Assembly (NCBI GenBank): GCA_963743085.1 | Contig: CAVUOU010000034.1 | Location: forward strand, 3,679 to 67,678 | DNA length: 64,000 nucleotides | From: an uncultured Actinomycetota bacterium | Lineage (GTDB): Bacteria; Actinomycetota; Actinomycetes; Streptosporangiales; Streptosporangiaceae | Reading direction: 5' to 3' | Shown: positions 5,413 to 18,923 of the stretch, piece by piece | How the letters are laid out: the number at the start of each line of letters is the position of its first letter | How positions within the stretch are numbered: position 1 is the stretch's first letter | The notes under the pieces: generated by a model | Told to the model about the DNA's origin: nothing | The model's database searches: none | Seen by the model: the letters and a program-made list of their open reading frames with translations, nothing else | Translations under genes and position numbers: made by a program

Positions 5413-7173
5413 CTACGACCAGCCCGCGCCGACCTTGAACGTTATGGTCTGCGTGAGCAGGAGGCCGGTAATCGTCACCGTGTACGTGCCGTCAGCCATT
5501 CCGTCCGTGTCGATTTTGGCGGTGACCCTACCGTTGCCATCCGGTCCGGTCACCGCAAGCGATGAGTCCGTCCCGGGTCCGGCGATGGTGGCCGTCACGT
5601 CGTCCCAGGTCTGTCCGGGCACCGTTGAGTTCGGGTTAGCATACGGGCCGCTCGTCACCCCGTACTGGCCGGGAAGCGGCGGGTACACGCCGAATCCGTC
5701 CAGAATCGTCGTCCCGTTCGGGGTCCGGCCGGGGATGAACCCGTTCCCGGTGATCGTGATGGTATGACCGCTAACCGCCTCGCGGATGTTGGACTGCAAC
5801 CGGTTCAGCGCCTGCTGCGCTAGTCGGCGAGGCTGGGACGGTCCGTGCTGCCTGTCGATCTGCCTGACCAGCGCGGGCACGAAAGCCGGCGCGTAGATGG
5901 TGCCCCAGCCCGACGCGATGTCGTAGCCAGGCCCGGTCGAATAACCGGTGACGCCGTACGCGCTGTCCGTATAGCCGGCGGGCACATCGATGATGCCGGC
6001 CGCCGCGCCACGCGGTCCGATCGCCGCCAGAGCAGGATTGATCGTGCCCAGATCGGCACCGCGTAGCTGGGTGGCCAGCGCGAGGATGCCCGCGAAGGTG
6101 GGCGACGCCTGCGAGGTGCCGTCGGAAGCATCCATCGAGATGTCGGGGAAGGCCCGGCCGGTGACGTCACGCAATGCCGGGATGTCCCGCTGCCAGTACG
6201 GCTTCGGGTAGATGGTGGATATCCCGGCGCTCGCCGCGTCAGAGTCGTCGTTCGGCGCGGTCCACAGCCCATCAGGGGCGGTACGCCCGGACTCGGTGGC
6301 GAGGCCAGCGTTGGGGATGGTGCCACCAACGGCGGTTACCCATGGGCTGTCGACCGGGTGACCCGCGGTGAGACCGATCGTCGGCGTGCACTGGCCGGTG
6401 TCGCCGAGGACCGTTGGATTGGTCGGGCCGCAGTCGCCGGCCGCGAACGACACCGGAATGTTGTGCGCGGCGGCGTCAATGAATGCGGGATCCAGCGAAT
6501 GGATGGCCGCCTGCTGGGTGGCGGACGGATTCGTCGGGTCGTCGATGAAGTCGTTCTCTCCGTCAGCCAGGCTCACCGTGATGACGTCGGCCAGGTGCTT
6601 GTTCGCGATCATCTCAATGGCCTGGGCCACCTGTGGCCAGCCCTGCATGCCAACGGTTTCGGGCACCGGAGGATAGACGAAGATAATGTTCGCGTAGGGC
6701 GCCATCGAGTGGATGGCCTCCGCGTCGAGCTGGTCTTCGCCGGTGCTGCACTCGACCTGGCACGTGGTGGAGGGGTTGGATGGCGCCGGGTACGCCATCT
6801 CAGTGATGTTCGCCGGTGGCAAGTCCATCGCCGTGTCGTAAGACGCCATCGACGCGGCCAGGTCAGGGTCCGGATTGGTGACGATGTACGCCACGGTCAC
6901 GCCGGCGCCGTCGATCCCCTTCTTCCACAGGTCGTTAACGCCGTAGTCGATGATGTCTTCCTGCGCCGTTGGATCCGGATAGCGCAGCCTGAGCGACTTA
7001 CCGGCAGCGATCTTCGCCTCGATCGCGTTGTACGTCGCCGTCGTTGCCGCGATGCGTTGCGCGGGAGGCGGGACGCTCTGGCTCTGGCCTGATGATGTCA
7101 TGGCCATTGCTGACGCCGGACTGATGAACAGGAGGCTGGCCGCGCCAGCGATGAGAAGGGGCCTACGGACCAT
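5413..7173 (-). CDS. secreted S53-family (sedolisin/kumamolisin-like) serine peptidase with C-terminal beta-rich extension
   Basis: N-terminal signal peptide (LLIAGAASLLFISPASA). Pro-domain plus IDYGVNDLWKKGIDGAGVTVAYIV. Nucleophile motif SDGTSQASPTFAGILALATQ. 586 aa. Confidence 0.7.
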   Translation of the reverse strand: MVRRPLLIAGAASLLFISPASAMAMTSSGQSQSVPPPAQRIAATTATYNAIEAKIAAGKSLRLRYPDPTAQEDIIDYGVNDLWKKGIDGAGVTVAYIVTNPDPDLAASMASYDTAMDLPPANITEMAYPAPSNPSTTCQVECSTGEDQLDAEAIHSMAPYANIIFVYPPVPETVGMQGWPQVAQAIEMIANKHLADVITVSLADGENDFIDDPTNPSATQQAAIHSLDPAFIDAAAHNIPVSFAAGDCGPTNPTVLGDTGQCTPTIGLTAGHPVDSPWVTAVGGTIPNAGLATESGRTAPDGLWTAPNDDSDAASAGISTIYPKPYWQRDIPALRDVTGRAFPDISMDASDGTSQASPTFAGILALATQLRGADLGTINPALAAIGPRGAAAGIIDVPAGYTDSAYGVTGYSTGPGYDIASGWGTIYAPAFVPALVRQIDRQHGPSQPRRLAQQALNRLQSNIREAVSGHTITITGNGFIPGRTPNGTTILDGFGVYPPLPGQYGVTSGPYANPNSTVPGQTWDDVTATIAGPGTDSSLAVTGPDGNGRVTAKIDTDGMADGTYTVTITGLLLTQTITFKVGAGWS

Positions 7174-7289: not shown

Positions 7290-7487
7290 GTGGAAGGCAT
7301 CGACACCAGCGTTCCGAACATCGCGAGGGTCTACGACTGCCTGCTGGGTGGCAAGGACCACTTCGCGGTTGACCGAGTGCAGGCCGCCAAGTTGATCGAG
7401 TTCGATCCGTCGCTGCTGGGGTTACGGCGCTATGGGGTGACTAAGAGTTTATGCGCTGCGCGGCGGGAGATCCGCAGCACTTCTTGA
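7290..7487 (+). pseudogene. N-terminal stub of a DUF574-type SAM-dependent methyltransferase
   Basis: IDTSVPNIARVYDCLLGGKDHFAVDRVQAAKLIEFDP matches the conserved N-terminus of actinobacterial DUF574 methyltransferases (about 270 aa). Similarity is lost after about 47 aa, at the 3' end of the SEC-C gene. Confidence 0.55.
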
Positions 7488-8568
7488 ACTTGGTTCCGCT
7501 GCCGCAGGGACACGGTTCGTTGCGTCCTACCTTCCTGCTCACGACCGGGACCGGGTCTCGGAGTTGGCTGGCCTTCCGCTCCCATTCGCGAGCGTCGGCA
7601 ACCTTGCCCATGTCCTCGTATAGGTAACGGAACCTGTCGGCGATATCGGCACGGTCGCGCACGCCAGGGACTGAGTAGCCGCGCCGCAGCAGTTCCTCTG
7701 CCCGGCCCGGGTCCTCCGGGCTTTCTTTGAGCAAGCCGCCATAACAATCAGACCACCCGATCCAGCCCCATCCCCATCGCGGGTCGGCGGTCAGCCACGC
7801 GTCAAAGTGCTCGTCTGCCTTGCCCGGCCCGTCTGTCACGAAGTACGTCTCGGCAAGCGCGCGGCGAAGATTCTCGGTGAGCAACTGGTCCTCGTCGGCG
7901 AACCTGCGCAAGGCCTCCTCGCAGAGAGCGATCCGTTCGGTTAGGAACTCGGGCTTCTGCAGGCCCGCGTTCCATAGCTCTGATTCGATGTCGTTGAGCC
8001 AGTTGAACAGCGACTGAGTGAGCGGGAAGCGGTTATCAAAGCGTTCGATGGAGGTGATACACGCGGCGTCGCACAGAGCCAGGATGCTGCGCCACGCGTC
8101 GAGCCAGACGGTCATGCACGCGGTCAGATCCTTGCGCTCATGGTGCTTGTAGCCCGCCTGCATCTTGTCGTCGAGCAACTCCATGCAGACCTTGTCCGGC
8201 CACCAGCGCTCCCAGAGCGCGAGGACGCAGAGCCATATCCAGTCACCCTGCTGACCGCCGTCCGGGTTGCGTGAATCCCAGTTGTCCAGGAGCGGCTTGG
8301 CGGCATCCTCTGCCGACAGCGCGGTCGCGCAGAGATCCGTGAGCGCCTGGCGGTCCAGTTCGAATCCCAGGCCGCGCAGCTTGCCGAGCAGTTCGTCATC
8401 GCTCAGTTCTGCCGTACCCGACCGCATCGGCCTATCGTCGGCCTCAAGCGAGCGGCGCAACGACTCGTCTCGAGCCGCTTCCTCTTGGAGCATACGGTCG
8501 AGGGTCACCCACGACAGGTTCATGGCGCTCCTAGCTATGAGGCCTGGAAGATCTCGTCCATGTGCCAT
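7441..8568 (-). CDS. SEC-C motif domain protein (helical, Trp-rich; C-terminal [14 protein letters not shown] zinc-binding motif)
   Basis: The C-terminal [18 protein letters not shown] is the SecA-C-terminus-type metal-binding motif. Overlaps the upstream HNH gene by 34 nt, so operonic. Confidence 0.55.
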
Positions 8569-9560
8569 TGCAGGAACTCAGGGTTGGGCCGCTGGTCCCG
8601 GCGTTCCGGCAGTGCGATGACTTCACCTTGCTGCGCATAGTACCTGTCACCGTTCCCGTACACCTCGCGCAGCAGCGGGCTGACTCGGAGCCGGTACTGC
8701 GGATCGACGCCAAGGAACCCGCGATCGAACATAGTGTGCACATCGGATCGGAGCAGAAGCCCGTTGTCAATCCGGTGCTCGCCATGCCGCTCGACGGGAA
8801 CGATGTGTGCCGCCTGCAGCACCGGCCAGACTTTCGCCTCAGTGATCGCGCAACGCCGGTGATAGGCATTGAACACCGCTGCCCGGAAGCCGCCTTGCCC
8901 GAGCCGTTCCTGGCGCAGCCGCAGGTCGCTGAACATCGGCCCACTGTGCCGCCACTCCGGACTGCTGAGGTCGATCTCCACCGCCAGGTCGAGGACTTGC
9001 GCGGTGATCAGGTCGAAGTATCCGCCGTATCGTGGGGCATCGATGTCGTACGCCTTGCCCTGCATGATGCCCGGTGCCCACTCCGGCGGCGGTCCGGCGG
9101 TGTCGTGCCGATCGAAGAACCGCACGTCCCGCAGCAGAACGCAGCCGATCTCCGGATCGTCGCGTGGCCCCAGCGTGGCGTGCGCGCCGATCAGACGCCG
9201 TAGCTCGTCCAAAGTGGCGGCGCCGTTGCCAGGGCCGTACACCTCCCACGCGGCGGACAGCGGGAGAAGTTCCCAGTCGGCGAAAATGCCGCCGCCGACC
9301 ACGCGGTTGCCAACCGCCGCCTTGAGCTTGAAAAAGAAGAGGTCACCGGACTGGATCGCGCCGAAGCGCTTGCGGTCCCGTGGCCGCCAGAAGTTGACCT
9401 CGGTGAGTTCGGGGCGTGCGGACAGGAACTCGTACCATTCGAGGTCGGTTACCCCGACGTATCCCCGCACAGTCGTATTTTGCACTGGTGGCATGAAGCT
9501 GCGGGTGACATCGGCGCAAGTGCCTACCGTACTCGGCGCAGCGCCGCGAGGTGCGCTCAC
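8535..9560 (-). CDS. HNH_2-type endonuclease with N-terminal PUA-like (EVE-like) putative modified-DNA reader domain; Type IV restriction candidate
   Basis: C-terminal [61 protein letters not shown] fits the PF13391-like HNH pattern. N-terminal about 190 aa ([34 protein letters not shown]) resembles PUA-superfamily readers fused to HNH in modification-dependent REases. Confidence 0.55.
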
Positions 9561-9608
9561 CGCCGTTCTCTGTAAAGACTTTCATTCCCATAACGACGGT
9601 TACCGATC

Positions 9609-10607
9609 TCAAGCAGATACTCGAGTCGGGGGACGGCACGTATAGAGAATCCTGTTGGTTAGGTCGTCCAGGCCAGCTTCGATCTGTTCAGGCCCAGTCG
9701 TCAGGTCCAGCCACCATGAGTGAATCCGGATGTTCACGTTCCGGATCGTCGCCAAGAAGTCGGTTGGGAGCGACACGGATGCTGCCTTGAGGGCATAAAC
9801 AAGCGCCACGTCTTTAACGTCGTGCCCGATCGCGTAAGAGAGCATCTGGGCGTAGTGGTCGACATGCGTTGTTCCGTCACTCGCCAGGACGTACTTCGAG
9901 TCCAGGACGAAGGCGGCTGACGACCCTCGCTGCACGACGATGTCGGGTCTGATGATGAGGCGGTTCTCGACGTCCAGATGCCGCTGCTCTTGGCCGACCA
10001 CCCGGATGGTGTTGTCGGCTGCCTGAAGCCGCTTTCTGAGTCCCTCTTCGAGGAACTGCTCGAATAGATTGTTCATGTCGACCAGGAAAGAACAGTCGCG
10101 TGTGTTGCCGGCGGCTTCTGACAGGCTGAGTCGCCGCAGCAGGAGAGCGCTCAACCGGACGGCCGGAAGATAGCGACGGTCAAGTCGGGTCGGTTCCCAG
10201 GTTTCTGCCCAATGAAGGTCCGGCTCCACGGGTACGACTTCTTCGAGCAGAGTGAGTTGGAGTTGCAGGGTTCTGCGTACGGTTCCCGGTATGCCTGGCA
10301 GTCGCAGAACGCGGGAAAGTGCTGCTCTGATCAGCTGATTCAGCTTCGTATCGGCGGTGTAGTCGTCGTATCGGCAGCGGACCGGGACGGGTGAAAAAGG
10401 GTGGCGGAGTTGTTCCCTGAGGTCGATCCGGCCGCGGAGGGCGACGAGAGGCTCCTGGCGTTCGACGTAGCCATGCTGAACTCCTCGCCCAATGGCGCGG
10501 TCAACTGTGTGCGCTAGCAGCCTGGCAATGCCCGCGAAAAGGTCGTGATGGATCAGCAGATCCACCTCTTCGTTGCCCCACCAGTCTCGCGGCCGTTCGA
10601 TACCCAC
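9609..10607 (-). CDS. McrC-family PD-(D/E)xK nuclease subunit homolog (no adjacent McrB GTPase)
   Basis: Colinear with E. coli McrC: Y..E..L.ALRGRIDL, RYDDYTADTKLNQLIRAALSRVLRL, FLVDMNNLFEQFL, and the catalytic core IRPDIVV...FVLDSKYV (D..hhhhD.KY). The N-terminal about 30 residues of EcoMcrC are absent. Start is GTG. Confidence 0.6.
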   Translation of the reverse strand: MGIERPRDWWGNEEVDLLIHHDLFAGIARLLAHTVDRAIGRGVQHGYVERQEPLVALRGRIDLREQLRHPFSPVPVRCRYDDYTADTKLNQLIRAALSRVLRLPGIPGTVRRTLQLQLTLLEEVVPVEPDLHWAETWEPTRLDRRYLPAVRLSALLLRRLSLSEAAGNTRDCSFLVDMNNLFEQFLEEGLRKRLQAADNTIRVVGQEQRHLDVENRLIIRPDIVVQRGSSAAFVLDSKYVLASDGTTHVDHYAQMLSYAIGHDVKDVALVYALKAASVSLPTDFLATIRNVNIRIHSWWLDLTTGPEQIEAGLDDLTNRILYTCRPPTRVSA

Positions 10608-10801
10608 TGATCATCGGTCGGCTTAGCGAACTTCAAGGCGAGTACGGTGGCGTGCGCTTGGACCGTTTCCGATCGTTCGAGTTGTATCGCCGCAACACGG
10701 CCGAACCCGAGATCGTGACCTACGACGAACTCCTCGCACGAGCCGAGTGGCATCTCGCTGTTAGGTAAAGCCGTGATACCGGCCTCTGGGCGACTGAACG
10801 C

Positions 10802-11353
10802 CTACAGGAGCCCGTACTGCCTCGCGTAGCCGGGAAATTCGGCACCCGTGCAGGGCAGCCTGTGTCCCGACGCTCGCAAGGCGTCGATTAGATTTCCGGC
10901 GGCGGGCTCCGAGAGTTTGCCATCGCGGCAGGCGCCCGCCAGCATCCAAATGGTCCCGTGTGCGTCTAGACCGTGGGCCCTAGCGACTCGTACCGCCCCT
11001 CGATCGTCGGTGATGGCAATCGCCGAACGTAGTTCGGCTGCCGCGAATACGCTGGCTTCCCCCAGGTCCCGCTCGCCCGAACCTAGGCGCTTTGTCCACA
11101 CTGCGAAATGCTTGATCTCGTCGAGAGTGTCGAGTTGGACGATCTTGAGCCAGTCAGCCGCAAGGACATCGTTCAGCGCTGGGTACGCGGTGACGCCTCG
11201 CCTGACTTCTTCTAGAACGACTCGGGTTGTCCAGCACTCCTTCCCGACCAGTAGGTCGCGAAGTACATCCAGTCGTTCCGTCCGAGCGAAATGGCTCAAG
11301 CACACGGCATCGAATACCCAAACCGAGCTGACGGCAGCCGCCTGCTCGGTCAT
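10802..11353 (-). CDS. PIN-like (DUF4411-like) putative nuclease, partner of the XRE-ImmA gene
   Basis: The start ATG overlaps the upstream gene stop (ATGA). VWVFDAVCLSHFARTERLDVLRDLL is a PIN-like first acidic motif. Size and pairing match DUF4411 proteins found next to COG2856 peptidases. Confidence 0.5.
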   Translation of the reverse strand: MTEQAAAVSSVWVFDAVCLSHFARTERLDVLRDLLVGKECWTTRVVLEEVRRGVTAYPALNDVLAADWLKIVQLDTLDEIKHFAVWTKRLGSGERDLGEASVFAAAELRSAIAITDDRGAVRVARAHGLDAHGTIWMLAGACRDGKLSEPAAGNLIDALRASGHRLPCTGAEFPGYARQYGLL

Positions 11354-12468
11354 GGTTCGATATCTTCCTCGGTACACGCAGGCAGGTCGGCTGCGGTGAT
11401 CTGCCCGTGCATGAGTTCAACGGCCCTCGATGCGGTGACGGCGCCCTTCTTCCAGGCTTCCATGACGGCATGGGCATAACCGGGAGGCACTCGTATAGCT
11501 TCGAGATCCGGTTGCGGCGCCCATCCCAAGGCTTCCATGAACTCGCCCCGCGTAGGAGAGACCTTTCCCCAGTCGCGGCGGGTCGGCCCGCTGAGGACTC
11601 CCGCGCGGGCGGCTTGCCTGATCGCCAGCGACCACGACGTCCGATAGTGGGCCGCGAGTCCGATGAGCTGATCCCGGTCCATGGTCTCTGACGCGCCGAG
11701 TTCAGCCGTCACGACCTGCGAGGGGAGTAGCAGTTCCGCTGCGAATGTGTCGAGCAACGCCTCTCGGTCTCCTCGCGACGTGTGGACACCGAGATCACTG
11801 GAGTATTCATCACCGACGACGAGGTGGCCGAGTTCGTGAGCAGCGGTGGCACGGCGACGCCCTGGATCTCCTCGGCGGCTGATGACCGCGACCGCCACGT
11901 CGCCATCGACCATCGATGCGCCTTCTCCTGGAACGTCGGTGACCAGGACGTACTGGCCAGCTCGTTCGCAAAGATCCACCATCGAGTCGATTGGCTTGGT
12001 GTGAACGCCCAGTTGCTCTCGAACCCCTAGCGCGACTTCGCGAGCAGCGGCCTCGGAGTCGACCGGCGTCTTGGCCCGCAAGAGAGGTCCTGGCCGCAGC
12101 GTACCCAGCTTGACCATCTGCTGCACGTCATGCAGCCATGCCACCAGAGTCAGGTCTAGACGCCCAGACTCTCGTGCTGCTTCGGTGTCCGCGTCTTCGG
12201 TCACGACACCAGAGCGGTGCGACAAGATGAGGGGCGTGGGCTGGAGCAATAGTTCAACTGGCACCTGAAGCGCAGACGACAGTCTGATCAGCTCCATGGC
12301 ATCTATGCGCCGGTGCCCGGACTCGATCTTGACGATCATTGTGCGGTCCAAGCCTGCCTTGCTGCCGAGCTCCTCTTGAGTAAGGCCTGCGGCCAGACGA
12401 GCGATGCGCATGCGCTCTCCGACATCTGCCCACTCAGCGTCGCCACTCATAGTTCGATAATCGCACAT
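11350..12468 (-). CDS. XRE-family HTH fused to ImmA/IrrE-family (COG2856) zinc metallopeptidase
   Basis: N-terminal HTH_3 (MRIARLAAGLTQEELGSKAGLDRTMIVKIESGHRRIDAMELIRLSSAL). HEXXH motif ATAAHELGHLVVGDEY. 372 aa. Confidence 0.7.
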   Translation of the reverse strand: MCDYRTMSGDAEWADVGERMRIARLAAGLTQEELGSKAGLDRTMIVKIESGHRRIDAMELIRLSSALQVPVELLLQPTPLILSHRSGVVTEDADTEAARESGRLDLTLVAWLHDVQQMVKLGTLRPGPLLRAKTPVDSEAAAREVALGVREQLGVHTKPIDSMVDLCERAGQYVLVTDVPGEGASMVDGDVAVAVISRRGDPGRRRATAAHELGHLVVGDEYSSDLGVHTSRGDREALLDTFAAELLLPSQVVTAELGASETMDRDQLIGLAAHYRTSWSLAIRQAARAGVLSGPTRRDWGKVSPTRGEFMEALGWAPQPDLEAIRVPPGYAHAVMEAWKKGAVTASRAVELMHGQITAADLPACTEEDIEP

Positions 12469-12609
12469 CCGCCTCGTGAGCGCGAACGAGACCCGCCGCC
12501 AGGGAGGCCTGCCTCGATAAGGAGGCCAGCGGGCCGACGGTCAGTCCGCGCCTGTTTCCGATTGCCTTGACTGCGCAATGTGTTCGATATTAGAAACGAA
12601 TAGTATGAG

Positions 12610-12645
12610 AGGACCGTCGAGGTGCGGGAACACCTCGACGGTCCT
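12610..12645. other. perfect 15-bp-stem hairpin (aggaccgtcgaggtg / cgggaa / cacctcgacggtcct)
   Basis: Read directly from the sequence. Lies between the island and the repeat remnant. Confidence 0.6.
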
Positions 12646-12689
12646 AGTCATCAACTCCAACACAACTGGAGGACGACATGGGACCCATC

Positions 12690-12900
12690 AAATCATGAGC
12701 GATCGAGAACTCGTCGATGGTGTCGCGTCGGTTAGCCACGCCATCCCTGGCGTCCCCAACGTCACCAGGCTGTGGATGGGTGTCCGGGGAATGGAGAAGC
12801 GTTACGTCTTCTCCGGGAAGCCCTACCAGCGCTTCTTGTAAAAGGAGTTCGTGAAGGCGTGGAAACGATCGGGTCGGTAGCTCAGCTTTGGGCGGCCAGG
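12690..12900 (+). repeat. degenerate second copy of the 3' module of gene 25974..27464 (about 85% nt identity to 27030..27225)
   Basis: Encodes ELVDGVASVSHAIPGVPNVTRLWMGVRGMEKRYVFSGKPYQRFL*KEFVKAWKRSGR. The second copy encodes ELVEGVASVSHSIPGVPNVTGLWMGVREVEKRYVFAGKPFQRFLYKEFVKAWKRSGR. This copy carries an internal stop and no upstream coding context. Confidence 0.6.
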
Positions 12901-13738
12901 TGGCGTTCGAGGATGGTGCGGCTCTCGGTCGGGTCCGCGGCCACAGTGGTCTCGATGTGAGTCCAGATGTCATACAGCGCGTCACCAGAGGCTAGTCGGA
13001 CGCCAATGACTGCGGGATAGGCGACGCCAATCCGATCGTTAGTGCCTGCGAAAGACAAAATCTCGAAGAGGTGGCCGCGGCTCTCGAAGAAAGCGGCGTC
13101 CTTGGGGATGATGCACACTGTGGCATGCGGGCTGTGGCTTAGTGCGAGCAGGTGACGGAGCTGCCCGGCCATGATGTCTGGACGATTCAACCGCTCGAAA
13201 GCGGTCTCGTCGATGATCACGTCGAGAAGCCGGGTAGCCGCGGCCGGGTGATGCGTCTGGCGATGGTAGAGCAGGTCCCATTCCTGATCGACGTCGCAGT
13301 CGAGGAAGACATACGGCGCGATCTCGCGGAAGTAGCCTTCGGTCTGGACCAGGTAGGGGATCAGCAGAAGGCCGTGGACCTGGGCGAGGGTGGCCTCTGC
13401 TTCGAGCAAGAGCACGTCCCTGGTGTCTGCGGTCATCCGGGCGTGTGCGCGGCGAGCCAGGGTGGCGGGGAAGCCACGCGCCGAGCCATGTCGATAATCA
13501 TGTCGGAGGCTCCGGCTTCCCGTACGCCGTACTCGACAAGGATGCGTGCGACTTCCTCGGAGCTCGCTACCCCGAATCCGGTCTCTAGGCGAACCAGCCA
13601 GTCAGACCCGCGGCCCAGTCGCGCTGCGGCCTCGTCGTAGGTCAGGCACGCGACTTCCCGGGCCGTCTCGAGCATCGATCCCAGAGTGCCCGGACGGTTC
13701 GCGGTGCTGCTCGACGCGAACTCGGCCGGTGAGACCAC
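12882..13738 (-). pseudogene. XRE-HTH / DUF5753 (Scr1-like) regulator, frameshifted between the HTH and DUF5753 parts
   Basis: 13433..13738 encodes an XRE-like HTH. 12882..13436 encodes the DUF5753-like C-terminal domain in a different frame. The DUF397 partner gene expected downstream is absent. Confidence 0.55.
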
Positions 13739-13753
13739 GTTCTCCCAGGGCGT

Positions 13754-14547
13754 TCACCTGGCGCGGGCGAATAGTGCCCCCTGCGGCGTTGCCCGGTCTG
13801 GCTGGAGGATTTCGCCTCGTTCGATCGCGCCGGTCCGAAGCAGAACAGTGTAGGCGATCTCGGCGGAGTGCCTTGCTGTCCACTTGGTCATCGGTAAGCC
13901 ATCGCGGAAACCGTAGCCGAACTTCTCTAGCCAGTCGGTGGCGAACTGAAGCGGGTCCTCGGGCAGTTGCGCGGCCACCGCGGTGAGCAACAGTACGGTT
14001 GCCTGCAACTCCAGCCGTTGTGCACGGCGGGGTGGCACGTTTGCCGCTAGGTCCCACCAGAGCTTGACCGGGTCGTTGCGGACCGCGCGTCCGCTCGGGG
14101 TAGCGAGCAGGATGCCGCGTTCCTTGCGCAGTAGACCGGTTTTCATTGCAGACTCACGCAGTTCCAGAACGGGGAGAGTCTGGTTCTCCCGGTTGTGCTT
14201 GCCGATCCACTCGTCCCAGAGCCCGAGTTCGGCAACGGTGGCCTCGACGACCTTGGGCGGAAGGAACCCAGCAGCGGTCAGCTTTATCCCGTCGCTGACC
14301 TGGTCCAGCAGCCACGTGTACGGCGCACCATTCGGGTCGCGACCTGCGCGTCAACGAGGACCGGGTCTCCCAGTTTGGCTAGGAGCATCGACCTCAGCAG
14401 CTCGATCTGGAGGAGCGGGTCTTGCAGCACCGACACCACATCGTTGACCTGTTCGGCGAGAGTAGCTCGGAAACTTGGGTAGCCGAGGTTTTCCCAGGAC
14501 TTGTCCATGCTGGTCACCGTACCGGCGTGCGGGCTCTCCGTGAGCAT
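13754..14547 (-). pseudogene. hypothetical protein (about 264 aa) with a frameshift near 14300
   Basis: ORF 14284..14547 continues in the -1 frame into ORF 13754..14146 (..APYTWLLDQVSDGIKLTAAGFLPPKVVEATVAELGLWDEWIGKHNRENQTLPVLELRESAMKTGLLRK..). No family recognised. Confidence 0.35.
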
Positions 14548-14572
14548 GACGGCAATCTATGGGTGACAGCCA

Positions 14573-15310
14573 TCACACCGCCTTGCTGGCGCCGTTCGCA
14601 TCGGGCACTAGAACGCGCATCTGCAAGGCTGCCACGAGGTCTTGGCGCTCATAGCTGGCGAAGACGTTGGTGAGCTGCCCGAGTAGCAGCGTCTTCTCCG
14701 CGGGACTAAGCTCCGCGAGGAACTGCGCGACGAGACCGGGAACTACGTCCTTGTCAGCAGCGCTTGCACTGGACTCCGCGATGCCCTGCACGACCGTCTC
14801 GAATTGGTTCTCCTTGTCTGCTAGGGCGAGAAGCTTGCCCGGGTCACCATCGAACCACCACAGCCGGGCGGTGGCGGTATCGGCAAGGAACACGTCGCGC
14901 AGCTTCACCAGCCGGTCCCGCTGAGCCTCGAGTTCCGCGTCGGCGAGCATGGCCGCGCGATCGATGGAAGCCCGTCGTTCCGCATATTCAAGGTCATCGG
15001 CGGTTACGGTCAGCGTCACGTGTGCGGCCATCAGCGTGGCGCCAGTGCCTGGTATTTCCTGGGGCACCGCGAGACGATGGTTGACTTCGTCCTGGGCGGC
15101 GCTTGCGTCAAGCACCGAGTACTGGCGGGTGACCTTATTCGCGTCCTCAACCAGGTAGCGGAATACCGCCGCCCCGTCCTCCGGGGACGACACCCAGCGG
15201 GCAGACACCGTGGCGGTGAACCACGCTGCGGTCAGCAGGCGACTGGCCAGCCGGTATGGTCCCGCGTTGGCGTTGCAGCCAGGATCCGCGTAAGCACGCT
15301 GCCATCTCAT
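14573..15310 (-). CDS. hypothetical protein, co-operonic with the NTPase (4-nt overlap)
   Basis: Coding-like 245-aa ORF. ATGA-type overlap with 15307..17217. Confidence 0.4.
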   Translation of the reverse strand: MRWQRAYADPGCNANAGPYRLASRLLTAAWFTATVSARWVSSPEDGAAVFRYLVEDANKVTRQYSVLDASAAQDEVNHRLAVPQEIPGTGATLMAAHVTLTVTADDLEYAERRASIDRAAMLADAELEAQRDRLVKLRDVFLADTATARLWWFDGDPGKLLALADKENQFETVVQGIAESSASAADKDVVPGLVAQFLAELSPAEKTLLLGQLTNVFASYERQDLVAALQMRVLVPDANGASKAV

Positions 15311-17217
15311 ACGTTGGCCTCCGCGATCGCGGTATAAATTTTAGCCGGCGAGAGCCCGGGTGTGAGCGGGTCGCGAGCCGCTACCTTCCGCATGAGCTCG
15401 TCGTTGATGGTCTCACGGGGAATCGGGGCTGGATCGGTGTCCGCTTTCGCCCATTGCCAGGTCGCATTCGACAGAATGCCGATGTCATGGCTGCTATGGC
15501 AGGCGTCGGCCAGTGTGGTGGTCACAACCTCGTGAGATACCTTTCCCTGGGCGGCCGCCTCCAGCCATTCGACGCAGGCATCCCGCGCGGCGGCGACGTA
15601 GTCAGGGTCATGGAACGCGGCGCGCCAGCCCTCGGCGAGCAACTCGCGCCGGTCACGGCTGGAGAGCAGATCAGCGTCAGGAACGGCCAGCGCGAGAAAC
15701 ACCCGGATGCCGGTCGTGCGCAGGGGCTCGGGTTGCTCGATCCACCAGATTGTCTCCCGCAGCGTCTGGGTCCGCAGATGAGGCTCGTCAGCGAGCGACT
15801 GCAATGCCATCGTGACGCGCTCATACACGCCGGTGTCGCCGTTCCGGACGAGGTGACGCAGCCGCGTCATCGCGTTCCGCGGGAAGCTCTTGCCGAGCGG
15901 GCCGCCGCAGACGTCGGCGATGGTGAGCTTGAGGCTCTGCGTGGTTCCCGAGCGGGTCGCCCAACGGTACATGGCCTGGCGGATGCTGCTTCCGATAGTC
16001 GCGCTTACGCCCGCCTCTGTTAGTGCGTCAGCAGCTAGCTCCCGGCTTGCCGACTGCTCCGCCCATGTGCCAGCCGCATGGGTAATGAGTGCGGCGTCAC
16101 CGTGCCGGATGGCGAGATCGATCAGGCTGTAGGCGGCCTTGGCACCCGCTGGGTCGCGGAGTGATGTGGGCAGGTCAATGAGCCAGCGCTCCAGGTCGCC
16201 TCGCAAATGCAGACGATCGGTCCACACGTGTTCAAGCACAGAGGCGGCGTAGGCGGGGCGGGGAAGCTTTATCGTACCGTCGATGATCACCGCGTCGATC
16301 TCGGCGATGAGCTTGCCGGCACCGTCCCCGACGAGTCCTCCGCCGGGCGGCCGCTCGAATTTCACCCGGTCGATGAGCTGATCGGCAGCTCTGAAAACCG
16401 CTCCCGCGGCCGCGCCATCCAGAGAGGCAGCCGAGAGTAGCAGCGCTCGCTCGTATCCGTCGGTGTGCTTGCCGAACCAGACGCTCAGCTCATCGGACCA
16501 GTTTCGATATGCCGAGATAGCCTCGTGAAGGGGGTCGTCGCTATGTGCGGTGATCGCGTCGTTCCCAAGCTTTGCCAAACGTGCGGCGTCCGCCGGGCTC
16601 GCATCGTTTAGCAGATCCAGGACCTGGGGTCGCTGTGACCAGTCGTCAGCGACGGCCGGTGCGAGGTGGGTTCTCAGCACGTCGGCCGGATTCGGCGAGA
16701 TGATGGGGACAGAACGCATACGCGGCCCAAGCAGATTCCGGGTGGCAGGGGTCGTCGTCACCACGAGGTAGGCGCCGACCTTGGCGAGCTGATGGGCATA
16801 GCGAGGGAGGAGTTCGCTGAGCTCAGGCATTCCTCGCCCCATCTGATCATCGATGGCCACGATGTAGCCGTCGCCGCTCTTCGCGGGCAGCTCGCGCCGG
16901 TCGTCACCGGGGTCGAGGTCAACCCGATGGGGGATCGCGCCAAGCTCGGTGATCACGGCAACCGCAGTGACCAGTCGGCCAGACCCGGGCTGGCCGGTCA
17001 GCACAACGGCGTTCGCGGATCTTAGGGCATCAACCGCTTGGTCGGCCGATGCGGTACGTACATATACGGTCCGCAGTCGTGTGAGCTCTTCCAGGTCCAG
17101 CGCGTGCGCTTCGACCAGCTCCCGGACCCGCTGGACGATGTTTATGGTGTCGGCATTCAGTTGCTGCCCGTCGCCAGTGTTCTGATAGAACCTGGCAGGC
17201 TCGTCGATATCCGTCAC
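15307..17217 (-). CDS. STAND/NB-ARC-like P-loop NTPase with degenerate Walker A and C-terminal helical repeats
   Basis: Walker A is degenerate (VVLTGQPGSGRLVTA, K to R and T to L). Walker B GYIVAIDD about 40 aa later. hhhhTTT sensor-like motif YLVVTTTPATR. N-terminus is ARFYQNTGDGQQLNADTINIV. 636 aa. Confidence 0.55.
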   Translation of the reverse strand: MTDIDEPARFYQNTGDGQQLNADTINIVQRVRELVEAHALDLEELTRLRTVYVRTASADQAVDALRSANAVVLTGQPGSGRLVTAVAVITELGAIPHRVDLDPGDDRRELPAKSGDGYIVAIDDQMGRGMPELSELLPRYAHQLAKVGAYLVVTTTPATRNLLGPRMRSVPIISPNPADVLRTHLAPAVADDWSQRPQVLDLLNDASPADAARLAKLGNDAITAHSDDPLHEAISAYRNWSDELSVWFGKHTDGYERALLLSAASLDGAAAGAVFRAADQLIDRVKFERPPGGGLVGDGAGKLIAEIDAVIIDGTIKLPRPAYAASVLEHVWTDRLHLRGDLERWLIDLPTSLRDPAGAKAAYSLIDLAIRHGDAALITHAAGTWAEQSASRELAADALTEAGVSATIGSSIRQAMYRWATRSGTTQSLKLTIADVCGGPLGKSFPRNAMTRLRHLVRNGDTGVYERVTMALQSLADEPHLRTQTLRETIWWIEQPEPLRTTGIRVFLALAVPDADLLSSRDRRELLAEGWRAAFHDPDYVAAARDACVEWLEAAAQGKVSHEVVTTTLADACHSSHDIGILSNATWQWAKADTDPAPIPRETINDELMRKVAARDPLTPGLSPAKIYTAIAEANV

Positions 17218-17990
17218 GATGACCGGCCCCCGTATGTGATTGGTGCGGAGATGGTGTCGGCGTTGATCTGCTGGCCAGCTCCGGTGTTCTGGTAGAACCG
17301 GCCCGCCTTCGGCGGTTCACTGGAGTCGACGAGGGTGGCTGTCGCCGCCTGGGTCTCGGGGGCTGACGATCGCGATGGGCGCGGCACGTAGATCCAGGCA
17401 GGTTCGGCGAAGTCCTTGCCCGGCACCTCGGCTGTCACCTGATCGAACCGATCGGGATGCAACACTGATGTGTAGCCGCCACGGACGACATCATCGAAGA
17501 CGCGCTGCGAAACGATCGCGGCGAGCAGCGTTACATCGTGGTTGGAGCGGTTGAGGGCATCGCGCAGGGCGGTGGAGTCCAGAAGGCGGCATGCGACGTT
17601 CGTTGGAGTGCCAATGCGATCCCGCAGTTCGTCGCCTGCGTCTGGTACTGGGCCGATGTTGACGGACACTCGCAGCCGGAGCCGCAGCGCACGGTCGAGT
17701 GCCCGCAATTCCTCATCGGTCTCGGCCAGAACATCATGGAGCGTGTCGAGGACAGGGTGTAGCAGAAACGGCACGTCGGTCGGCATAGTTCCGAACAGGT
17801 ACCCGTCGCCGGTCCCCTGGGGGAAACGGCGTTGCTCCCAGATGCCCGGGAGCTGGCACCGCTCGAACGTCACCTTGAGCACGCGCTGAATGGTGGCGCT
17901 CAGGTCGGGCTGGCGGGCACTCGGGTTGGCGGTGAACCGTACGGTATCGACGGCGAAGATGCCTCGATACGGGGGAAGTGGTTCTGACAT
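17214..17990 (-). CDS. class III nucleotidyl (adenylyl/guanylyl) cyclase-like domain protein
   Basis: Metal-binding motifs GIFAVDTVRFTA and QGTGDGYLF. LRLRVSVNIGPVPDAG and GTPTNVACRLLDS carry the transition-state N/R arrangement of PF00211-type cyclases. The C-terminus ends RFYQNTGAGQQINADTI. Confidence 0.55.
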   Translation of the reverse strand: MSEPLPPYRGIFAVDTVRFTANPSARQPDLSATIQRVLKVTFERCQLPGIWEQRRFPQGTGDGYLFGTMPTDVPFLLHPVLDTLHDVLAETDEELRALDRALRLRLRVSVNIGPVPDAGDELRDRIGTPTNVACRLLDSTALRDALNRSNHDVTLLAAIVSQRVFDDVVRGGYTSVLHPDRFDQVTAEVPGKDFAEPAWIYVPRPSRSSAPETQAATATLVDSSEPPKAGRFYQNTGAGQQINADTISAPITYGGRSS

Positions 17991-18694
17991 ACCACGAAGG
18001 TGCCGCATCGCGGCGAACCCTTCTGTCCAGGAATAGACACTAACGCTAGCCCATCCGCGACGGCCGCGAGGCCGAGGGCGTCGGCTATCCAGATCCTGCG
18101 GCGGCCGGTTCGCACCAGTGCGTGGCGGCGAAGCCAGGCGAGCTCGCTGGCCACAGCGGATCGTGACATTCCCGCGGTCGTCGCGAGGTCGGACTGGGTG
18201 AGAACGCAGCAGCCACCCGGGGATAGGCGCAACAGCGAGCGTGCGAGCCGACGACGGGCAGGCAGCCCGGTCAGCTCGGCACGGATCTCCTCGCTCTCCC
18301 GTAGCCGCGCGATCACATGGCAGAAAACGAGGTCGCCAAGGGTGAAGTCACTAACGATCTTCCTGAAGCGTGCGTCCGGCAGGATGTACGTCACGCATGG
18401 GGAAAGAGCTGTGATGGTAGCGGAGCGCCGTCGATGGTCCAGATACGAGAGATCCCCGATGAGCTCGCCTCGTCCCCGAACGGCGAGCACGAGTTCGTGC
18501 CCGTCGGGTTCCAGGTGCGTGACCTTGACCAGGCCATGGGTCAGCGCGAGTACGAAACGCCCTTCGTCCCCCTGCCGTACGAGGATCTCGCCAGTGGCGT
18601 ACTGCCGGGGTGATCCGTTCACCAGGGTTGCGTGCCATGCTTGCAGCGGCATGAGGGCACCGAGTCCCTGGAGTCCGTCGTGCTCCACATTCAT
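17900..18694 (-). CDS. Crp/Fnr-family transcriptional regulator (cNMP-binding domain + HTH)
   Basis: cNMP-binding beta-roll GEILVRQGDEGRFVLALTHGLVKV...GRGELIGDLSYLD. HTH LTQSDLATTAGMSRSAVASELAWLRRHALV. An unusual about 50-aa C-terminal tail overlaps the cyclase gene start. Confidence 0.65.
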   Translation of the reverse strand: MNVEHDGLQGLGALMPLQAWHATLVNGSPRQYATGEILVRQGDEGRFVLALTHGLVKVTHLEPDGHELVLAVRGRGELIGDLSYLDHRRRSATITALSPCVTYILPDARFRKIVSDFTLGDLVFCHVIARLRESEEIRAELTGLPARRRLARSLLRLSPGGCCVLTQSDLATTAGMSRSAVASELAWLRRHALVRTGRRRIWIADALGLAAVADGLALVSIPGQKGSPRCGTFVVCQNHFPRIEASSPSIPYGSPPTRVPASPT

Positions 18695-18900
18695 ACGACA
18701 ACAGACCATCTAGCCATCGGCAAGCCCCGCTTTGGGAACGTTTGCTCGTCGAGTGCGTTCGCCATCAACTCCCGGATCGCGAACGGCACCGTCCAGTGCT
18801 CCAGGGCCTTCTCGATGTTCAGAACCCGTAGTGAGACGCATGACCGTGGGACAAGGTGTGCAGAAGACTACATAGGTGCACGGCATTCGTTACCGCACTG

Positions 18901-18923
18901 CTAGCCGTCACGTGACCGGCTAG
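18901..18923. promoter_or_regulatory. composite palindrome ctagccg-tcacgtgac-cggctag in the Crp upstream / divergent promoter region
   Basis: 7-bp arms flank a palindromic core, read from the sequence. A candidate operator. Confidence 0.3.

What the first reader, a model, noticed from the sequence alone, without database searches (positions are those of the whole stretch)
10802..12468. XRE-HTH/ImmA-IrrE metallopeptidase translationally coupled (ATGA) to a PIN-like DUF4411-type protein
The 372-aa protein combines an XRE HTH with an HEXXH peptidase of the ImmA/IrrE (COG2856) type. Its stop overlaps the ATG of a 184-aa PIN-like protein (VFDAV... acidic motif). COG2856 peptidase/PIN-like pairs are predicted toxin-antitoxin or abortive-infection-like modules. 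This one sits directly beside the McrC/HNH operon, and the pair may regulate or complement it.
Basis: partly seen in the sequence, partly recalled or inferred. Interest (0 to 1): 0.6.

Follow-up and report, generated by a model that had tools for sequence, protein, structure and literature searches.

The report
Peptidase-repressor plus PIN nuclease toxin pair
This is a self-contained two-gene toxin-antitoxin-type module (a DNA-binding zinc-peptidase protein coupled to a PIN-domain nuclease) of a class already predicted in the literature; it is kept as a pair in nearly all related actinomycete genomes, carries a strikingly conserved operator-like palindrome, and shows no conserved tie to the restriction genes next to it.

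Summary
On the minus strand an XRE-HTH/M78 (ImmA/IrrE, COG2856) protein with an intact HELGH site ends in an ATGA overlap with a 183-aa PIN-fold protein.

Two details are wrong:
- The PIN protein belongs to the COG2405/DUF3368 clade (PADLOC candidate PDC-S70), not DUF4411.
- The conserved start of the upstream gene is ATG 12450 (366 aa), not 12468.

In 80 actinomycete genome loci the two genes are adjacent and co-oriented in 78. They overlap by 4 nt in 65 of 77 and have co-diverged (Mantel r 0.89). No third gene is conserved: McrC lies nearby in 1 of 80 loci and the HNH gene in 3 of 80, so the proposed link to the McrC/HNH genes is not supported.

Seven loci have a disrupted PIN gene beside an intact upstream gene. 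The reverse case never occurs, as expected if the PIN protein is toxic and the upstream protein restrains it.

New here is an invariant 15-bp palindrome, GTGCGA-WWW-TCGCAC, ending 2 nt before the start codon. It occurs once per locus amid unconserved flanks, and is probably the HTH operator overlapping an extended -10 element.

Closest known kinds are the RosmerTA-type antitoxin (RmrA models, E 2e-28) and the predicted Xre-COG2856+PIN systems. Verdict: a new member of a known, experimentally untested subtype; modest interest.

The parts
12452..12466 (-). 15-bp palindrome GTGCGATTATCGAAC (family consensus GTGCGA-WWW-TCGCAC) ending 2 nt before the ATG of gene A. Probable HTH operator overlapping an extended -10-like element (TGcGATTAT) of a possibly leaderless transcript.
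   Evidence: The general pattern matches exactly in 68 of 80 genome loci, and 8 more carry 1-2 mismatches or a 1-nt deletion. It occurs once per locus, always just upstream of A, and the flanking bases are unconserved. There is a single site in the window. The same TGCGA-N3-TCGCA core is found in relatives whose B is 28% identical, on Streptomyces and Tsukamurella plasmids. Function as operator/promoter is inferred.
11350..12450 (-). Gene A: 366-aa XRE-HTH / M78 (ImmA/IrrE, COG2856) zinc-peptidase fusion. Putative antitoxin and autorepressor of RmrA type.
   Evidence: Pfam HTH_3 1.2e-12 and Peptidase_M78 3.6e-10. PADLOC RmrA 1.9e-28 and capP 5e-15. PHROG 2439 1.3e-32. AF2 model pLDDT 84: the HTH resembles C-proteins/Cro and the peptidase resembles PprI/IrrE 8sln/3dti. 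The start at 12450 follows from conservation.
12247..12408 (-). XRE-type helix-turn-helix domain of A (residues 15-68 in 366-aa numbering).
   Evidence: Pfam HTH_3/HTH_31/HTH_19. PDB sequence matches to C.AhdI and C.BclI. Q25, R36, K41, E43, G45 and R47 are invariant in 73 orthologues.
12184..12240 (-). Inter-domain linker of A (residues 71-89). It carries the invariant S77 and R79 in a predicted short strand, followed by a low-confidence loop. Candidate self-cleavage or pseudosubstrate segment (speculative).
   Evidence: Invariant S77 and R79. Strand 75-79, with pLDDT below 50 for residues 80-87. The analogy is to CapH, cut at F82/R83 by CapP. This part is inference only.
11632..11970 (-). 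M78/COG2856 peptidase core of A. HELGH is at 11824-11838 (H205, E206, H209) and the third zinc ligand E230 is at 11761-11763.
   Evidence: Pfam Peptidase_M78 covers profile positions 1-115 of 123. GRRR-x-x-AAHELGH, E230, E239 and P243 are invariant in 73 orthologues down to about 48% identity.
11413..11556 (-). Conserved C-terminal helical region of A (residues 299-346), which lies outside the RmrA and M78 profile matches. Candidate partner-specific (toxin-recognition) region.
   Evidence: P299, T300, E303, W310, P312, D315, L316, V321, A328 and R342 are invariant. RmrA models stop near residue 294. The region aligns with the Tsukamurella relative at 28% identity. The role is inferred.
11350..11353 (-). 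ATGA overlap: the stop codon of A overlaps the start codon of B (translational coupling).
   Evidence: Read directly from the sequence. An NTGA overlap is present in 65 of 77 related loci: GTGA 51, ATGA 8, TTGA 6.
10802..11353 (-). Gene B: 183-aa PIN-domain protein of the COG2405/DUF3368 clade (PADLOC PDC-S70). Putative nuclease toxin/effector.
   Evidence: PADLOC PDC-S70 9.7e-15. Pfam PIN 3e-4 (below the curated cutoff) and DUF3368 0.017. Among family members, DUF3368 matches 36 of 41 and PIN 23 of 41. AF2 pLDDT 93. Foldseek top hits are 1y82, VapC4 5h4g, PAE2754 and Shigella VapC.
10976..11323 (-). PIN core of B (residues 11-126), with acidic residues D15, E49, D96/E99 and D116/D117.
   Evidence: D15, E49, D96 and D116 are invariant, and E99 and D117 are at least 90% conserved, in 41 homologues. 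The secondary-structure order matches PIN.
10853..10960 (-). C-terminal helical extension of B (residues 132-167), the DUF3368-like region typical of COG2405 PIN proteins.
   Evidence: Pfam DUF3368 match at residues 132-167. PF11848 is precomputed on all 120 listed homologues.
12610..12645 (-). Perfect 15-bp inverted repeat (hairpin) about 160 nt upstream of A. Probable terminator insulating the pair from the upstream DUF5753 gene; it marks the boundary of the unit.
   Evidence: the repeat finder I1. RNA fold -37.1 kcal/mol, z -6.7. Not conserved in other loci.

Best explanation
The two genes form an autonomous, horizontally mobile, type II toxin-antitoxin-like (RosmerTA-architecture) module.

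Gene B encodes a catalytically competent PIN nuclease of the COG2405/DUF3368 clade, which is the growth-arresting effector. By analogy with VapC toxins it is most likely an RNase.

Gene A encodes a single-chain repressor-peptidase. Its XRE HTH, as a dimer, binds the 15-bp palindrome that overlaps the operon's own -10 region and start, and so autorepresses. A also holds B in check, most likely through direct binding by its family-specific C-terminal region. Translational coupling through ATGA keeps A and B made together.

A stress or infection cue activates the M78 peptidase. The cue could be single-stranded DNA or DNA damage, as for the related peptidases IrrE/PprI and CapP, or a phage product. 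The peptidase then cuts A itself, in cis or in trans, plausibly in the HTH-peptidase linker. This derepresses the operon and frees the PIN nuclease.

Shown here: the domain identities, the intact active sites, the conservation and co-divergence of the pair, the conserved palindrome, and the asymmetric decay of the two genes.

Inferred: toxicity, neutralisation by contact, the operator function, the trigger, and self-cleavage.
For: Domains and folds:
- A has HTH_3 plus Peptidase_M78 and matches 15 RmrA (RosmerTA antitoxin) models, best E 1.9e-28.
- The A model resembles C-protein/Cro HTHs and PprI/IrrE.
- B has a PIN fold with pLDDT 93, and all top PDB hits are VapC/PIN.
- B's acidic residues D15, E49, D96 and D116 are invariant.
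- The peptidase site HELGH plus E230 is invariant in 73 orthologues, so proteolysis is under selection.

The pair as a unit:
- A lies immediately upstream and co-oriented in 78 of 80 genome loci.
- A 4-nt NTGA overlap is present in 65 of 77.
- A and B distances correlate, Mantel r 0.89, with 0 of 2000 permutations as high.
- No third conserved gene exists, and contexts range from housekeeping to defence (MmeI/Mrr, Wadjet-like).
- The architecture is kept in relatives whose B is 28% identical, on actinomycete plasmids.

Toxin-like behaviour:
- B alone is frameshifted or truncated with A intact in 7 loci. A alone is disrupted in 0, and both are disrupted in 5.
- A is twice as long as B, so neutral decay would hit A more often. 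By my arithmetic the chance is (1/3)^7, about 5e-4.

Autoregulation:
- The invariant palindrome sits once per locus at the A start.

Foreign origin:
- GC3 is 0.68-0.70 for A and B, against about 0.85 for most genes in the window.

Literature:
- Fused Xre-COG2856 proteins are linked to PIN/RelE toxins (PMC2701414).
- COG2405 is listed among PIN families co-transcribed with HTH plus DUF955 (PMC5499597).
- The ImmA node is an antitoxin node associated with PIN-like domains, and RosmerTA is validated in defence (PMC10440598; bioRxiv 10.1101/2022.05.11.491447, where a rmrA deletion could not be transformed).
- CapP and PprI are activated by ssDNA (bioRxiv 10.1101/2022.04.27.489752; PMC10904395).
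- COG2856 peptidases alone were not toxic (PMC4257102).
Against: - I found no experiment on any HTH-M78 + COG2405-PIN pair in the searched library.
- Toxicity, substrate and neutralisation mode are all inferred.
- A lacks the GAF-type C-terminal domain through which IrrE/CapP are thought to be regulated, so the ssDNA trigger may not transfer.
- B's match to the Pfam PIN model is below the curated cutoff (21.8 vs 23.6 bits).
- No consensus sigma-70 promoter was found by the simple scan. The -10/leaderless reading rests on my inspection of the motif.
- A complex prediction could not be run, so direct A-B contact is untested.
- Many loci sit in ordinary chromosomal contexts rather than defence islands, which weakens a dedicated anti-phage role.
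- Some frameshifts in draft genomes could be sequencing errors.
Confidence: 0.62

Rival explanations
1. Transcription-only switch. A is a fused CapH/CapP- or ImmR/ImmA-like, damage-responsive, self-cleaving repressor. B is an inducible effector nuclease held in check only by low expression, not by protein-protein neutralisation. On this reading the module is a regulated effector rather than a true toxin-antitoxin pair.
For: - A matches capP (5e-15) and capH (9e-9) models and resembles PprI/IrrE.
- The palindrome overlaps the promoter and start region.
- CapH/CapP, DdrO/IrrE and ImmR/ImmA all work purely by repressor cleavage (bioRxiv 10.1101/2022.04.27.489752; PMC10904395; PMC10440598).
- Asymmetric decay is also expected if A merely represses B.
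Against: - The ATGA coupling, kept in 65 of 77 loci, makes B whenever A is made. This fits stoichiometric complex formation better than pure repression.
- A carries a conserved C-terminal region that is absent from the RmrA and M78 profiles and is kept in PIN-partnered relatives at 28% identity.
- A and B co-diverge tightly.
- Derepression would also raise A.
Confidence: 0.25
2. One reading: the pair is a regulator or functional partner of the adjacent McrC-like/HNH restriction genes.
For: - The genes are adjacent and co-oriented, 194 nt apart.
- No terminator-like site was found on the minus strand between B and the McrC-like gene, so read-through is possible in this genome.
- The same arrangement is seen in eight metagenomic contigs carrying a 100%-identical B protein.
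- CapH/CapP-type regulators do control neighbouring defence operons (bioRxiv 10.1101/2022.04.27.489752).
Against: - A McrC homologue lies within 6 kb in 1 of 80 loci (on the opposite strand, 32% identity) and HNH in 3 of 80. The SEC-C protein is found in none.
- Even the closest relatives (68-80% identity, L011-L014, L074) lack them.
- No neighbour family recurs in more than 12 of 81 loci.
- The palindrome occurs only once in the window.
Confidence: 0.05
3. An immunity/regulatory cassette of a prophage or integrative element (ImmR/ImmA-like), with the PIN gene as incidental cargo.
For: - A matches phage family PHROG 2439, 'transcriptional regulator', at 1.3e-32.
- ImmA/ImmR control ICEBs1 (PMC10440598, PMC2701414).
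- The low GC3 suggests acquired DNA.
Against: - No tRNA gene is present in the window, and no conserved mobile-element gene recurs next to the pair.
- B has no tblastn match in 50,697 phage records.
- The viral-contig matches to the palindrome lack A/B homologues.
- B is as conserved as A and co-diverges with it.
Confidence: 0.04

Closest known systems
RosmerTA (RmrT/RmrA) anti-phage toxin-antitoxin systems (Millman et al. 2022; Ernits et al. 2023, PMC10440598)
   Same: - A two-gene operon.
- The antitoxin is an XRE-HTH plus ImmA/M78 zinc peptidase. A matches 15 RmrA models, best E 1.9e-28.
- The antitoxin family pairs with many unrelated toxins.
   Different: - The partner is a PIN nuclease with no RmrT match. 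Validated RmrT toxins have no known domain or are membrane-depolarising (PMC10440598).
- The C-terminal 70 residues of A fall outside the RmrA profiles.
- Anti-phage activity is untested here.
Predicted Xre-COG2856 (DUF955) + PIN 'three-component' TA systems (Makarova et al. 2009, PMC2701414; Matelska et al. 2017, PMC5499597)
   Same: - Exactly this architecture: a fused HTH-COG2856 protein upstream of a PIN-like gene.
- COG2405/DUF3368 is explicitly listed among the PIN partners, with a Geobacillus example.
   Different: - Those reports are purely computational and give no operator, no start-site correction and no actinomycete clade analysis.
Here the actinobacterial partner is COG2405-type.
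VapBC (PIN toxin with DNA-binding antitoxin)
   Same: - PIN fold with a conserved acidic quartet.
- The antitoxin gene lies upstream with a 4-nt overlap.
- The antitoxin carries a DNA-binding domain, and a palindromic site lies at the promoter.
   Different: - The antitoxin is 366 aa with an active-looking metallopeptidase, not a small RHH/AbrB/Phd protein degraded by host proteases.
- The PIN carries the DUF3368 C-terminal extension.
- The usual COG2405 partner UPF0175 (PMC5499597) is replaced.
CapH/CapP, DdrO/IrrE(PprI) and ImmR/ImmA repressor-peptidase switches
   Same: - An XRE repressor together with an M78 peptidase.
- The peptidase core resembles PprI/IrrE and matches capP.
- The likely logic is proteolytic inactivation of a repressor.
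   Different: - Here repressor and peptidase are one polypeptide.
- There is no GAF-like sensor domain.
- The controlled gene is a translationally coupled single nuclease rather than a regulon, CBASS operon or mobile element.
PADLOC candidate PDC-S70 (single-gene PIN defence candidate; PMC12988326)
   Same: B matches PDC-S70 models, best E 9.7e-15 over profile positions 3-145 of 161.
   Different: - PDC-S70 is defined as a single-gene candidate and is described as predominantly archaeal.
- Here the PIN gene is obligately paired with an HTH-peptidase gene in Actinomycetota.

Membership tests
   No DUF4411 hit for B even at E<=10, and 0 of 41 family members match it at E<=0.01.
COG2405 / DUF3368 PIN clade | PIN core plus the C-terminal DUF3368 (PF11848) segment | tested here: met
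   DUF3368 matches 36 of 41 family members, and PF11848 is precomputed on all 120 listed homologues. The window protein itself is weak: E 0.017, below the cutoff.
PIN domain superfamily (VapC-like) | PIN fold (a parallel beta-sheet flanked by helices) | tested here: met
   AF2 model pLDDT 93 and pTM 0.87. The Foldseek PDB top 50 are almost all PIN/VapC, best E 1.9e-5 and TM(target) about 0.7. The Pfam PIN match (E 3e-4, 21.8 bits) is just below the 23.6-bit cutoff.
PIN domain superfamily (VapC-like) | Conserved acidic active-site residues (three to four Asp/Glu) | tested here: met
   D15, E49, D96 and D116 are invariant, and E99 and D117 are at least 90% conserved, across 41 homologues. Their spatial clustering was not inspected.
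PIN domain superfamily (VapC-like) | Mg/Mn-dependent nuclease activity and toxicity | not testable with these tools
   Needs expression and cleavage assays.
RosmerTA | Antitoxin RmrA: a zinc peptidase (ImmA/M78), usually with an N-terminal HTH | tested here: met
   15 RmrA HMMs match A, best E 1.9e-28 over residues 18-294. HELGH and E230 are invariant.
RosmerTA | Toxin of the RmrT families | tested here: not met
   In PADLOC, B matches only PDC-S70 models and no RmrT model. It is a PIN fold.
RosmerTA | Two adjacent co-oriented genes forming one operon | tested here: met
   ATGA overlap. The pair is kept in 78 of 80 loci and the overlap in 65 of 77.
RosmerTA | Protection against phage; toxin neutralised by the antitoxin | not testable with these tools
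   Only indirect support is available: B-only decay in 7 loci against A-only decay in 0.
Xre-COG2856 + PIN predicted TA systems (Makarova 2009 / Matelska 2017) | Fused Xre HTH and COG2856/DUF955 peptidase encoded next to, and co-directional with, a PIN-like gene | tested here: met
   The definition is quoted.
CapH/CapP-type regulator of a neighbouring defence operon | Conserved association with, and an operator upstream of, the regulated defence genes | tested here: not met
   McrC lies nearby in 1 of 80 loci and HNH in 3 of 80. The palindrome occurs once in the window, upstream of A only.
IrrE/PprI/CapP peptidases | C-terminal GAF-like regulatory domain and ssDNA-stimulated cleavage | tested here: inconclusive
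   Only about 157 columns of the peptidase core align with PprI/IrrE. The C-terminal region of A is short and helical, so a GAF domain appears absent. ssDNA stimulation is not testable here.

The most novel reading that the evidence does not exclude
A is a single-chain 'LexA-like' sensor-antitoxin. The invariant palindrome is its operator on a leaderless, extended -10 promoter. An infection or DNA-damage cue makes the M78 domain cut its own HTH-peptidase linker, at the invariant S77-x-R79 segment. That one cut simultaneously derepresses the operon and releases a COG2405 PIN RNase. This would be the first mechanistic model for how Rosmer-type peptidase antitoxins sense and fire, and it would show that the PADLOC 'single-gene' candidate PDC-S70 is, in actinomycetes, the effector of a two-gene system.
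Probability: 0.25. Interest if true: 0.55.

Novelty: new member of a known kind. Interest (0 to 1): 0.3.

Why it matters
Peptidase-containing antitoxins (RosmerTA and the Xre-COG2856 family) are widespread, but how they sense a trigger and release their toxins is not understood. PIN-partnered versions have, as far as the searched literature shows, never been tested.

This actinomycete clade offers a clean model:
- a strictly two-gene unit;
- an intact peptidase site;
- a defined 15-bp operator candidate, invariant across relatives about 50% identical in protein sequence;
- natural toxin-only pseudogenes.

It also corrects automated labels. The PIN gene would be called a stand-alone PDC-S70 candidate and the upstream gene an orphan RmrA. 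For the genome in hand, the finding is ordinary accessory-genome content and says nothing special about the neighbouring McrC/HNH genes.

Tried and rejected
- **Complex prediction.** Direct A-B contact therefore remains untested.
- **DUF4411.** No profile support.
- **Phage origin.** tblastn of B against 50,697 phage records found nothing. A scan of viral contigs for GTGCGATTATCGCAC gave 43 hits, but none sits near an A or B homologue, which I take to be chance-level matches.
- **A second operator.** An 8-nt repeat, GTTCGATA, at 12582 is at chance expectation and is not conserved. The resemblance of the A/B junction (ATCGAACCATGA) to the operator half-site is not seen in other loci, so it is a coincidence.
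- **Promoter scan.** The consensus sigma-70 scan found none in 10500-13000. The -10 reading rests on inspection of the motif.
- **Third component.** A search for a conserved third gene by clustering all neighbours found none.
- **RNA features.** No Rfam family and no tRNA in or near the region.
- **PDB sequence search with B.** No hit; only the fold comparison worked.
- **An apparently missing B gene in L134.** This was an annotation gap. The DNA is 99.94% identical to the window, with no indels.
Full report
**Observation**

Both genes lie on the minus strand. The upstream ORF runs from 12468 (first ATG) or 12450 down to a stop at 11350. The downstream ORF runs from 11353 to 10802. The sequence ...gaaccATGAccgag... 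shows that the stop codon of the first gene and the ATG of the second share ATGA at 11350-11353.

The upstream protein carries an XRE-type HTH (Pfam HTH_3, E 1.2e-12) and a Peptidase_M78/IrrE-like domain (E 3.6e-10). Its HELGH motif is at 11824-11838.

**What the downstream protein (B) is**

B does not match DUF4411, even at E<=10. Its only Pfam signals are PIN (E 3e-4, 21.8 bits against a 23.6-bit cutoff) and the C-terminal DUF3368 (E 0.017).

At family level the picture is clear:
- All 120 listed homologues carry PF11848/DUF3368 in precomputed annotation.
- In my own scan of 41 members, 36 match DUF3368, 23 match PIN and none matches DUF4411.
- In PADLOC, B matches the candidate defence family PDC-S70 (E 9.7e-15). 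A 2026 survey describes PDC-S70 as a single-gene PIN candidate (PMC12988326).

An AlphaFold2 model built on the 41-sequence alignment has pLDDT 93. Its PDB neighbours are almost exclusively PIN/VapC proteins: 1y82, VapC4 5h4g, PAE2754, Shigella and mycobacterial VapCs. The acidic residues expected of an active PIN site are invariant or nearly so: D15, E49, D96/E99 and D116/D117.

B is therefore a PIN nuclease of the COG2405/DUF3368 clade. Matelska et al. list that clade, alongside DUF4411, among PIN families co-transcribed with HTH and DUF955/COG2856 domains (PMC5499597). A profile search of 1.84 billion representatives finds 1763 clusters at E<=1e-3 and 448 at E<=1e-10, so the family is of moderate size.

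**What the upstream protein (A) is**

- A matches 15 PADLOC models of RmrA, the antitoxin of RosmerTA (best E 1.9e-28). It also matches capP and capH.
- It matches phage family PHROG 2439 (E 1.3e-32), and weakly the NCBIfam 'spr1629 family repressor/antitoxin'.
- Its AF2 model (pLDDT 84) has an N-terminal HTH that superposes on controller proteins and Cro-type repressors at about 1 A. Its peptidase core aligns with PprI/IrrE (8sln, 3dti).
- Across 73 orthologues, down to about 48% identity, the motif GRRR-x-x-AAHELGH, the third zinc ligand E230, and E239/P243 are invariant. The peptidase is therefore under selection to stay active.
- A C-terminal segment (residues 299-346) is also strongly conserved. 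It lies outside the RmrA and M78 profile matches and is alignable in a Tsukamurella relative at 28% identity. I take it as the candidate partner-specific region. This is inference.

**Conservation of the pair**

A scan of one genome per species returned 80 loci, all from Actinomycetota: Micromonospora, Nonomuraea, Amycolatopsis, Lentzea, Microbispora, Actinoplanes, Glycomyces and MAGs.

- By tblastn, an A homologue lies immediately upstream on the same strand in 78 of 80.
- The 4-nt NTGA overlap is present in 65 of 77 analysable loci (GTGA 51, ATGA 8, TTGA 6).
- Pairwise distances of A and B correlate across 52 intact pairs, Mantel r 0.89, with 0 of 2000 permutations as high. The two genes are inherited and diverge as a unit.
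- Clustering all neighbouring ORFs shows no third conserved gene. The most recurrent neighbour, a LuxR-type response regulator, occurs in 12 of 81 loci. The others are TetR regulators, ABC ATPases, ribonucleotide reductase and similar genes, in patterns that reflect local synteny.
- Individual contexts range from defence islands (MmeI-type enzyme and Mrr in Micromonospora; Wadjet-like DUF2397/TIGR02678 on a Streptomyces plasmid) to plain housekeeping (Planobispora).

**The McrC/HNH neighbours**

The adjacency is real. A McrC-like gene (Pfam McrBC, E 1.7e-40) lies at 9609-10607 and an HNH_2 gene at 8535-9560, both downstream on the same strand.

Across the 80 loci, however, a McrC homologue lies within 6 kb only once (opposite strand, 32% identity) and the HNH protein three times. 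The SEC-C and DUF5753 neighbours never recur. Only contigs from the same organism share the arrangement. These are eight contigs carrying a 100%-identical B protein, plus one whose DNA is 99.94% identical to the window. The idea that the pair regulates or complements McrC/HNH is therefore not supported. Transcriptional read-through in this particular genome cannot be excluded, because no terminator-like site was found between B and the McrC-like gene.

**A conserved operator-like palindrome**

Aligning the regions upstream of A showed complete divergence except for 15 nt ending 2 nt before the ATG.

- The strict form GTGCGATTATCG(C/A)A(C) occurs in 55 of 78 loci.
- The general form GTGCGA-WWW-TCGCAC matches exactly in 68 of 80 loci, and 8 more carry 1-2 mismatches or a 1-nt deletion.
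- It always occurs once per locus and always at this position.
- The window has GTGCGATTATCGAAC at 12452-12466, with one arm mismatch shared with its closest relatives. It has no other site in 64 kb.
- All 15 positions are conserved in at least 89% of 55 loci. At the preceding twelve positions the commonest base reaches only about 30-80%.
- The same TGCGA-N3-TCGCA core sits upstream of the distant plasmid-borne relatives.

The motif contains TGcGATTAT, which reads as an extended -10 element placed so that transcription would start at or near the ATG. The central WWW variants keep the A and T that matter most in a -10 hexamer. In the Amycolatopsis variant the palindrome lies between a TTGACG and a CACACT hexamer spaced 18 nt apart.

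I read the palindrome as the binding site of the A HTH dimer, overlapping the core promoter of a possibly leaderless operon. This is inference from sequence; the simple sigma-70 scan found nothing.

One consequence concerns the start codon. ATG 12468 lies inside this element, and its counterpart is absent or out of frame in relatives. ATG 12450 is invariant, so A is most likely 366 aa.

**Evidence that B is harmful and A restrains it**

Among the 80 loci:
- B alone is frameshifted or truncated, with A intact, in 7: L076, L077, L078, L082, L083, L086, L087. The disruptions are at different positions and in different genera.
- Both genes are damaged in 5.
- A alone is damaged in none.

A is twice as long as B, so neutral decay should hit A more often. 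By my arithmetic, seven of seven single hits falling in B has a probability of about (1/3)^7 = 5e-4. This is the pattern expected for a toxin and its antidote. It does not by itself distinguish neutralisation by contact from repression.

The literature agrees in kind. A rmrA deletion could not be transformed (bioRxiv 10.1101/2022.05.11.491447). COG2856 peptidases alone were not toxic in S. pneumoniae or E. coli (PMC4257102).

**Most likely mechanism**

The module is an autonomous, horizontally acquired toxin-antitoxin-type unit. GC3 is 0.68-0.70 for A, B and the McrC-like gene, against about 0.85 for most genes in the window.

- A dimer represses the operon at the palindrome.
- Coupled translation supplies A and B together.
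- A keeps the PIN nuclease inactive, probably through its C-terminal region.
- A cue activates the M78 domain, which cuts A (or a second A molecule). This derepresses the operon and frees B, which arrests growth by cleaving RNA, as VapC-type PINs do.

The related peptidases CapP and PprI/IrrE are switched on by single-stranded DNA and cut their XRE repressors just after the HTH domain. CapH is cut at F82/R83 (bioRxiv 10.1101/2022.04.27.489752; PMC10904395; bioRxiv 10.64898/2026.05.16.725639).

In A, the linker after the HTH carries the invariant S77 and R79 in a short predicted strand, followed by a low-confidence loop. That is a testable candidate cleavage site, but it is speculative.

A lacks the GAF-like domain of IrrE/CapP, so the trigger may differ. 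The main rival is a transcription-only switch without protein-protein neutralisation. I could not run the complex prediction that would bear on this.

**Comparison with known systems and novelty**

The architecture was predicted by Makarova et al. in 2009: fused Xre-COG2856 linked to PIN/RelE toxins (PMC2701414). Matelska et al. predicted it again in 2017, naming COG2405 explicitly. It also appears in the NetFlax network as the ImmA antitoxin node associated with PIN-like domains (PMC10440598).

RosmerTA shows that such peptidase antitoxins can belong to anti-phage TA systems, but with different toxins. B fails the RmrT criterion, so the pair works like a Rosmer system without being a member in the strict sense.

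I found no experimental study of a PIN-partnered version.

What this analysis adds:
- the correct PIN clade;
- the corrected start codon;
- the actinomycete-wide conservation of the pair;
- the decay asymmetry;
- the operator-like palindrome.

Verdict: a new member of a known kind, of modest interest (0.3).

Noticed in passing
window 9609-10607 (-), 8535-9560 (-), 7441-8568 (-): The McrC-like gene (Pfam McrBC, E 1.7e-40) has no McrB/AAA GTPase partner among the ORFs tested between 7.4 and 20.2 kb. It is followed by an HNH_2 protein whose C-terminal ~120 aa resemble a phosphorothioate-DNA-dependent restriction endonuclease (NCBIfam, E 4e-19), and then by a SEC-C-motif protein. This is an unusual orphan-McrC/HNH arrangement.
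   Followed up: partly
window 13433-13738 (-) and 12882-13436 (-): An HTH_31 ORF (101 aa) and a DUF5753 ORF (184 aa) overlap by 4 nt. From my own knowledge (not checked here), these two domains are normally one Streptomyces-type regulator, so this is either a natural split or a frameshifted gene. The same split is present in the same-organism contigs L001, L002 and L134.
   Followed up: no
window 14573-18008 (-): Three ORFs of 264, 636 and 245 aa abut one another with 4-nt overlaps. The 636-aa protein has weak nSTAND3 (E 2.3e-5, below cutoff) and PDC-S73 (E 3e-5) matches, and the other two have no family match. This may be another defence-type operon in the same low-GC3 stretch.
   Followed up: partly
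window 12610-12645: A perfect 15-bp inverted repeat with a 6-nt loop. As RNA on the minus strand it folds at -37.1 kcal/mol (z -6.7). It is probably a terminator between the DUF5753 gene and the pair. It is not conserved in other loci.
   Followed up: yes
window 7400-19000: Genes in this stretch have a lower third-position GC than most of the window: 0.68-0.79 (A, B and the McrC-like gene at 0.68-0.70) against 0.83-0.92. This is consistent with an acquired island. No tRNA gene occurs anywhere in the window.
   Followed up: partly
loci L076, L077, L078, L082, L083, L086, L087 (B at ~6000-6550): The PIN gene is frameshifted or N-terminally truncated while the upstream peptidase-repressor gene stays intact. 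These look like natural toxin pseudogenes in several genera (Actinoplanes, Nonomuraea, Paractinoplanes, Micromonospora, a MAG).
   Followed up: yes
L080 2995-3358 and 5090-5944: In Plantactinospora sp. WMMB334 the A gene appears split by about 1.7 kb of inserted DNA. The palindrome and the N-terminal fragment lie upstream of the insert, and B is also frameshifted. The insert was not characterised.
   Followed up: no
L138 1832-6504 (Streptomyces sp. BB1-1-1 plasmid): A distant version of the pair (B 28% identical) sits directly upstream of DUF2397 and TIGR02678 genes (Wadjet-like). It has the palindrome TTGCGATTTTCGCAA 19 nt upstream of its ATG.
   Followed up: partly
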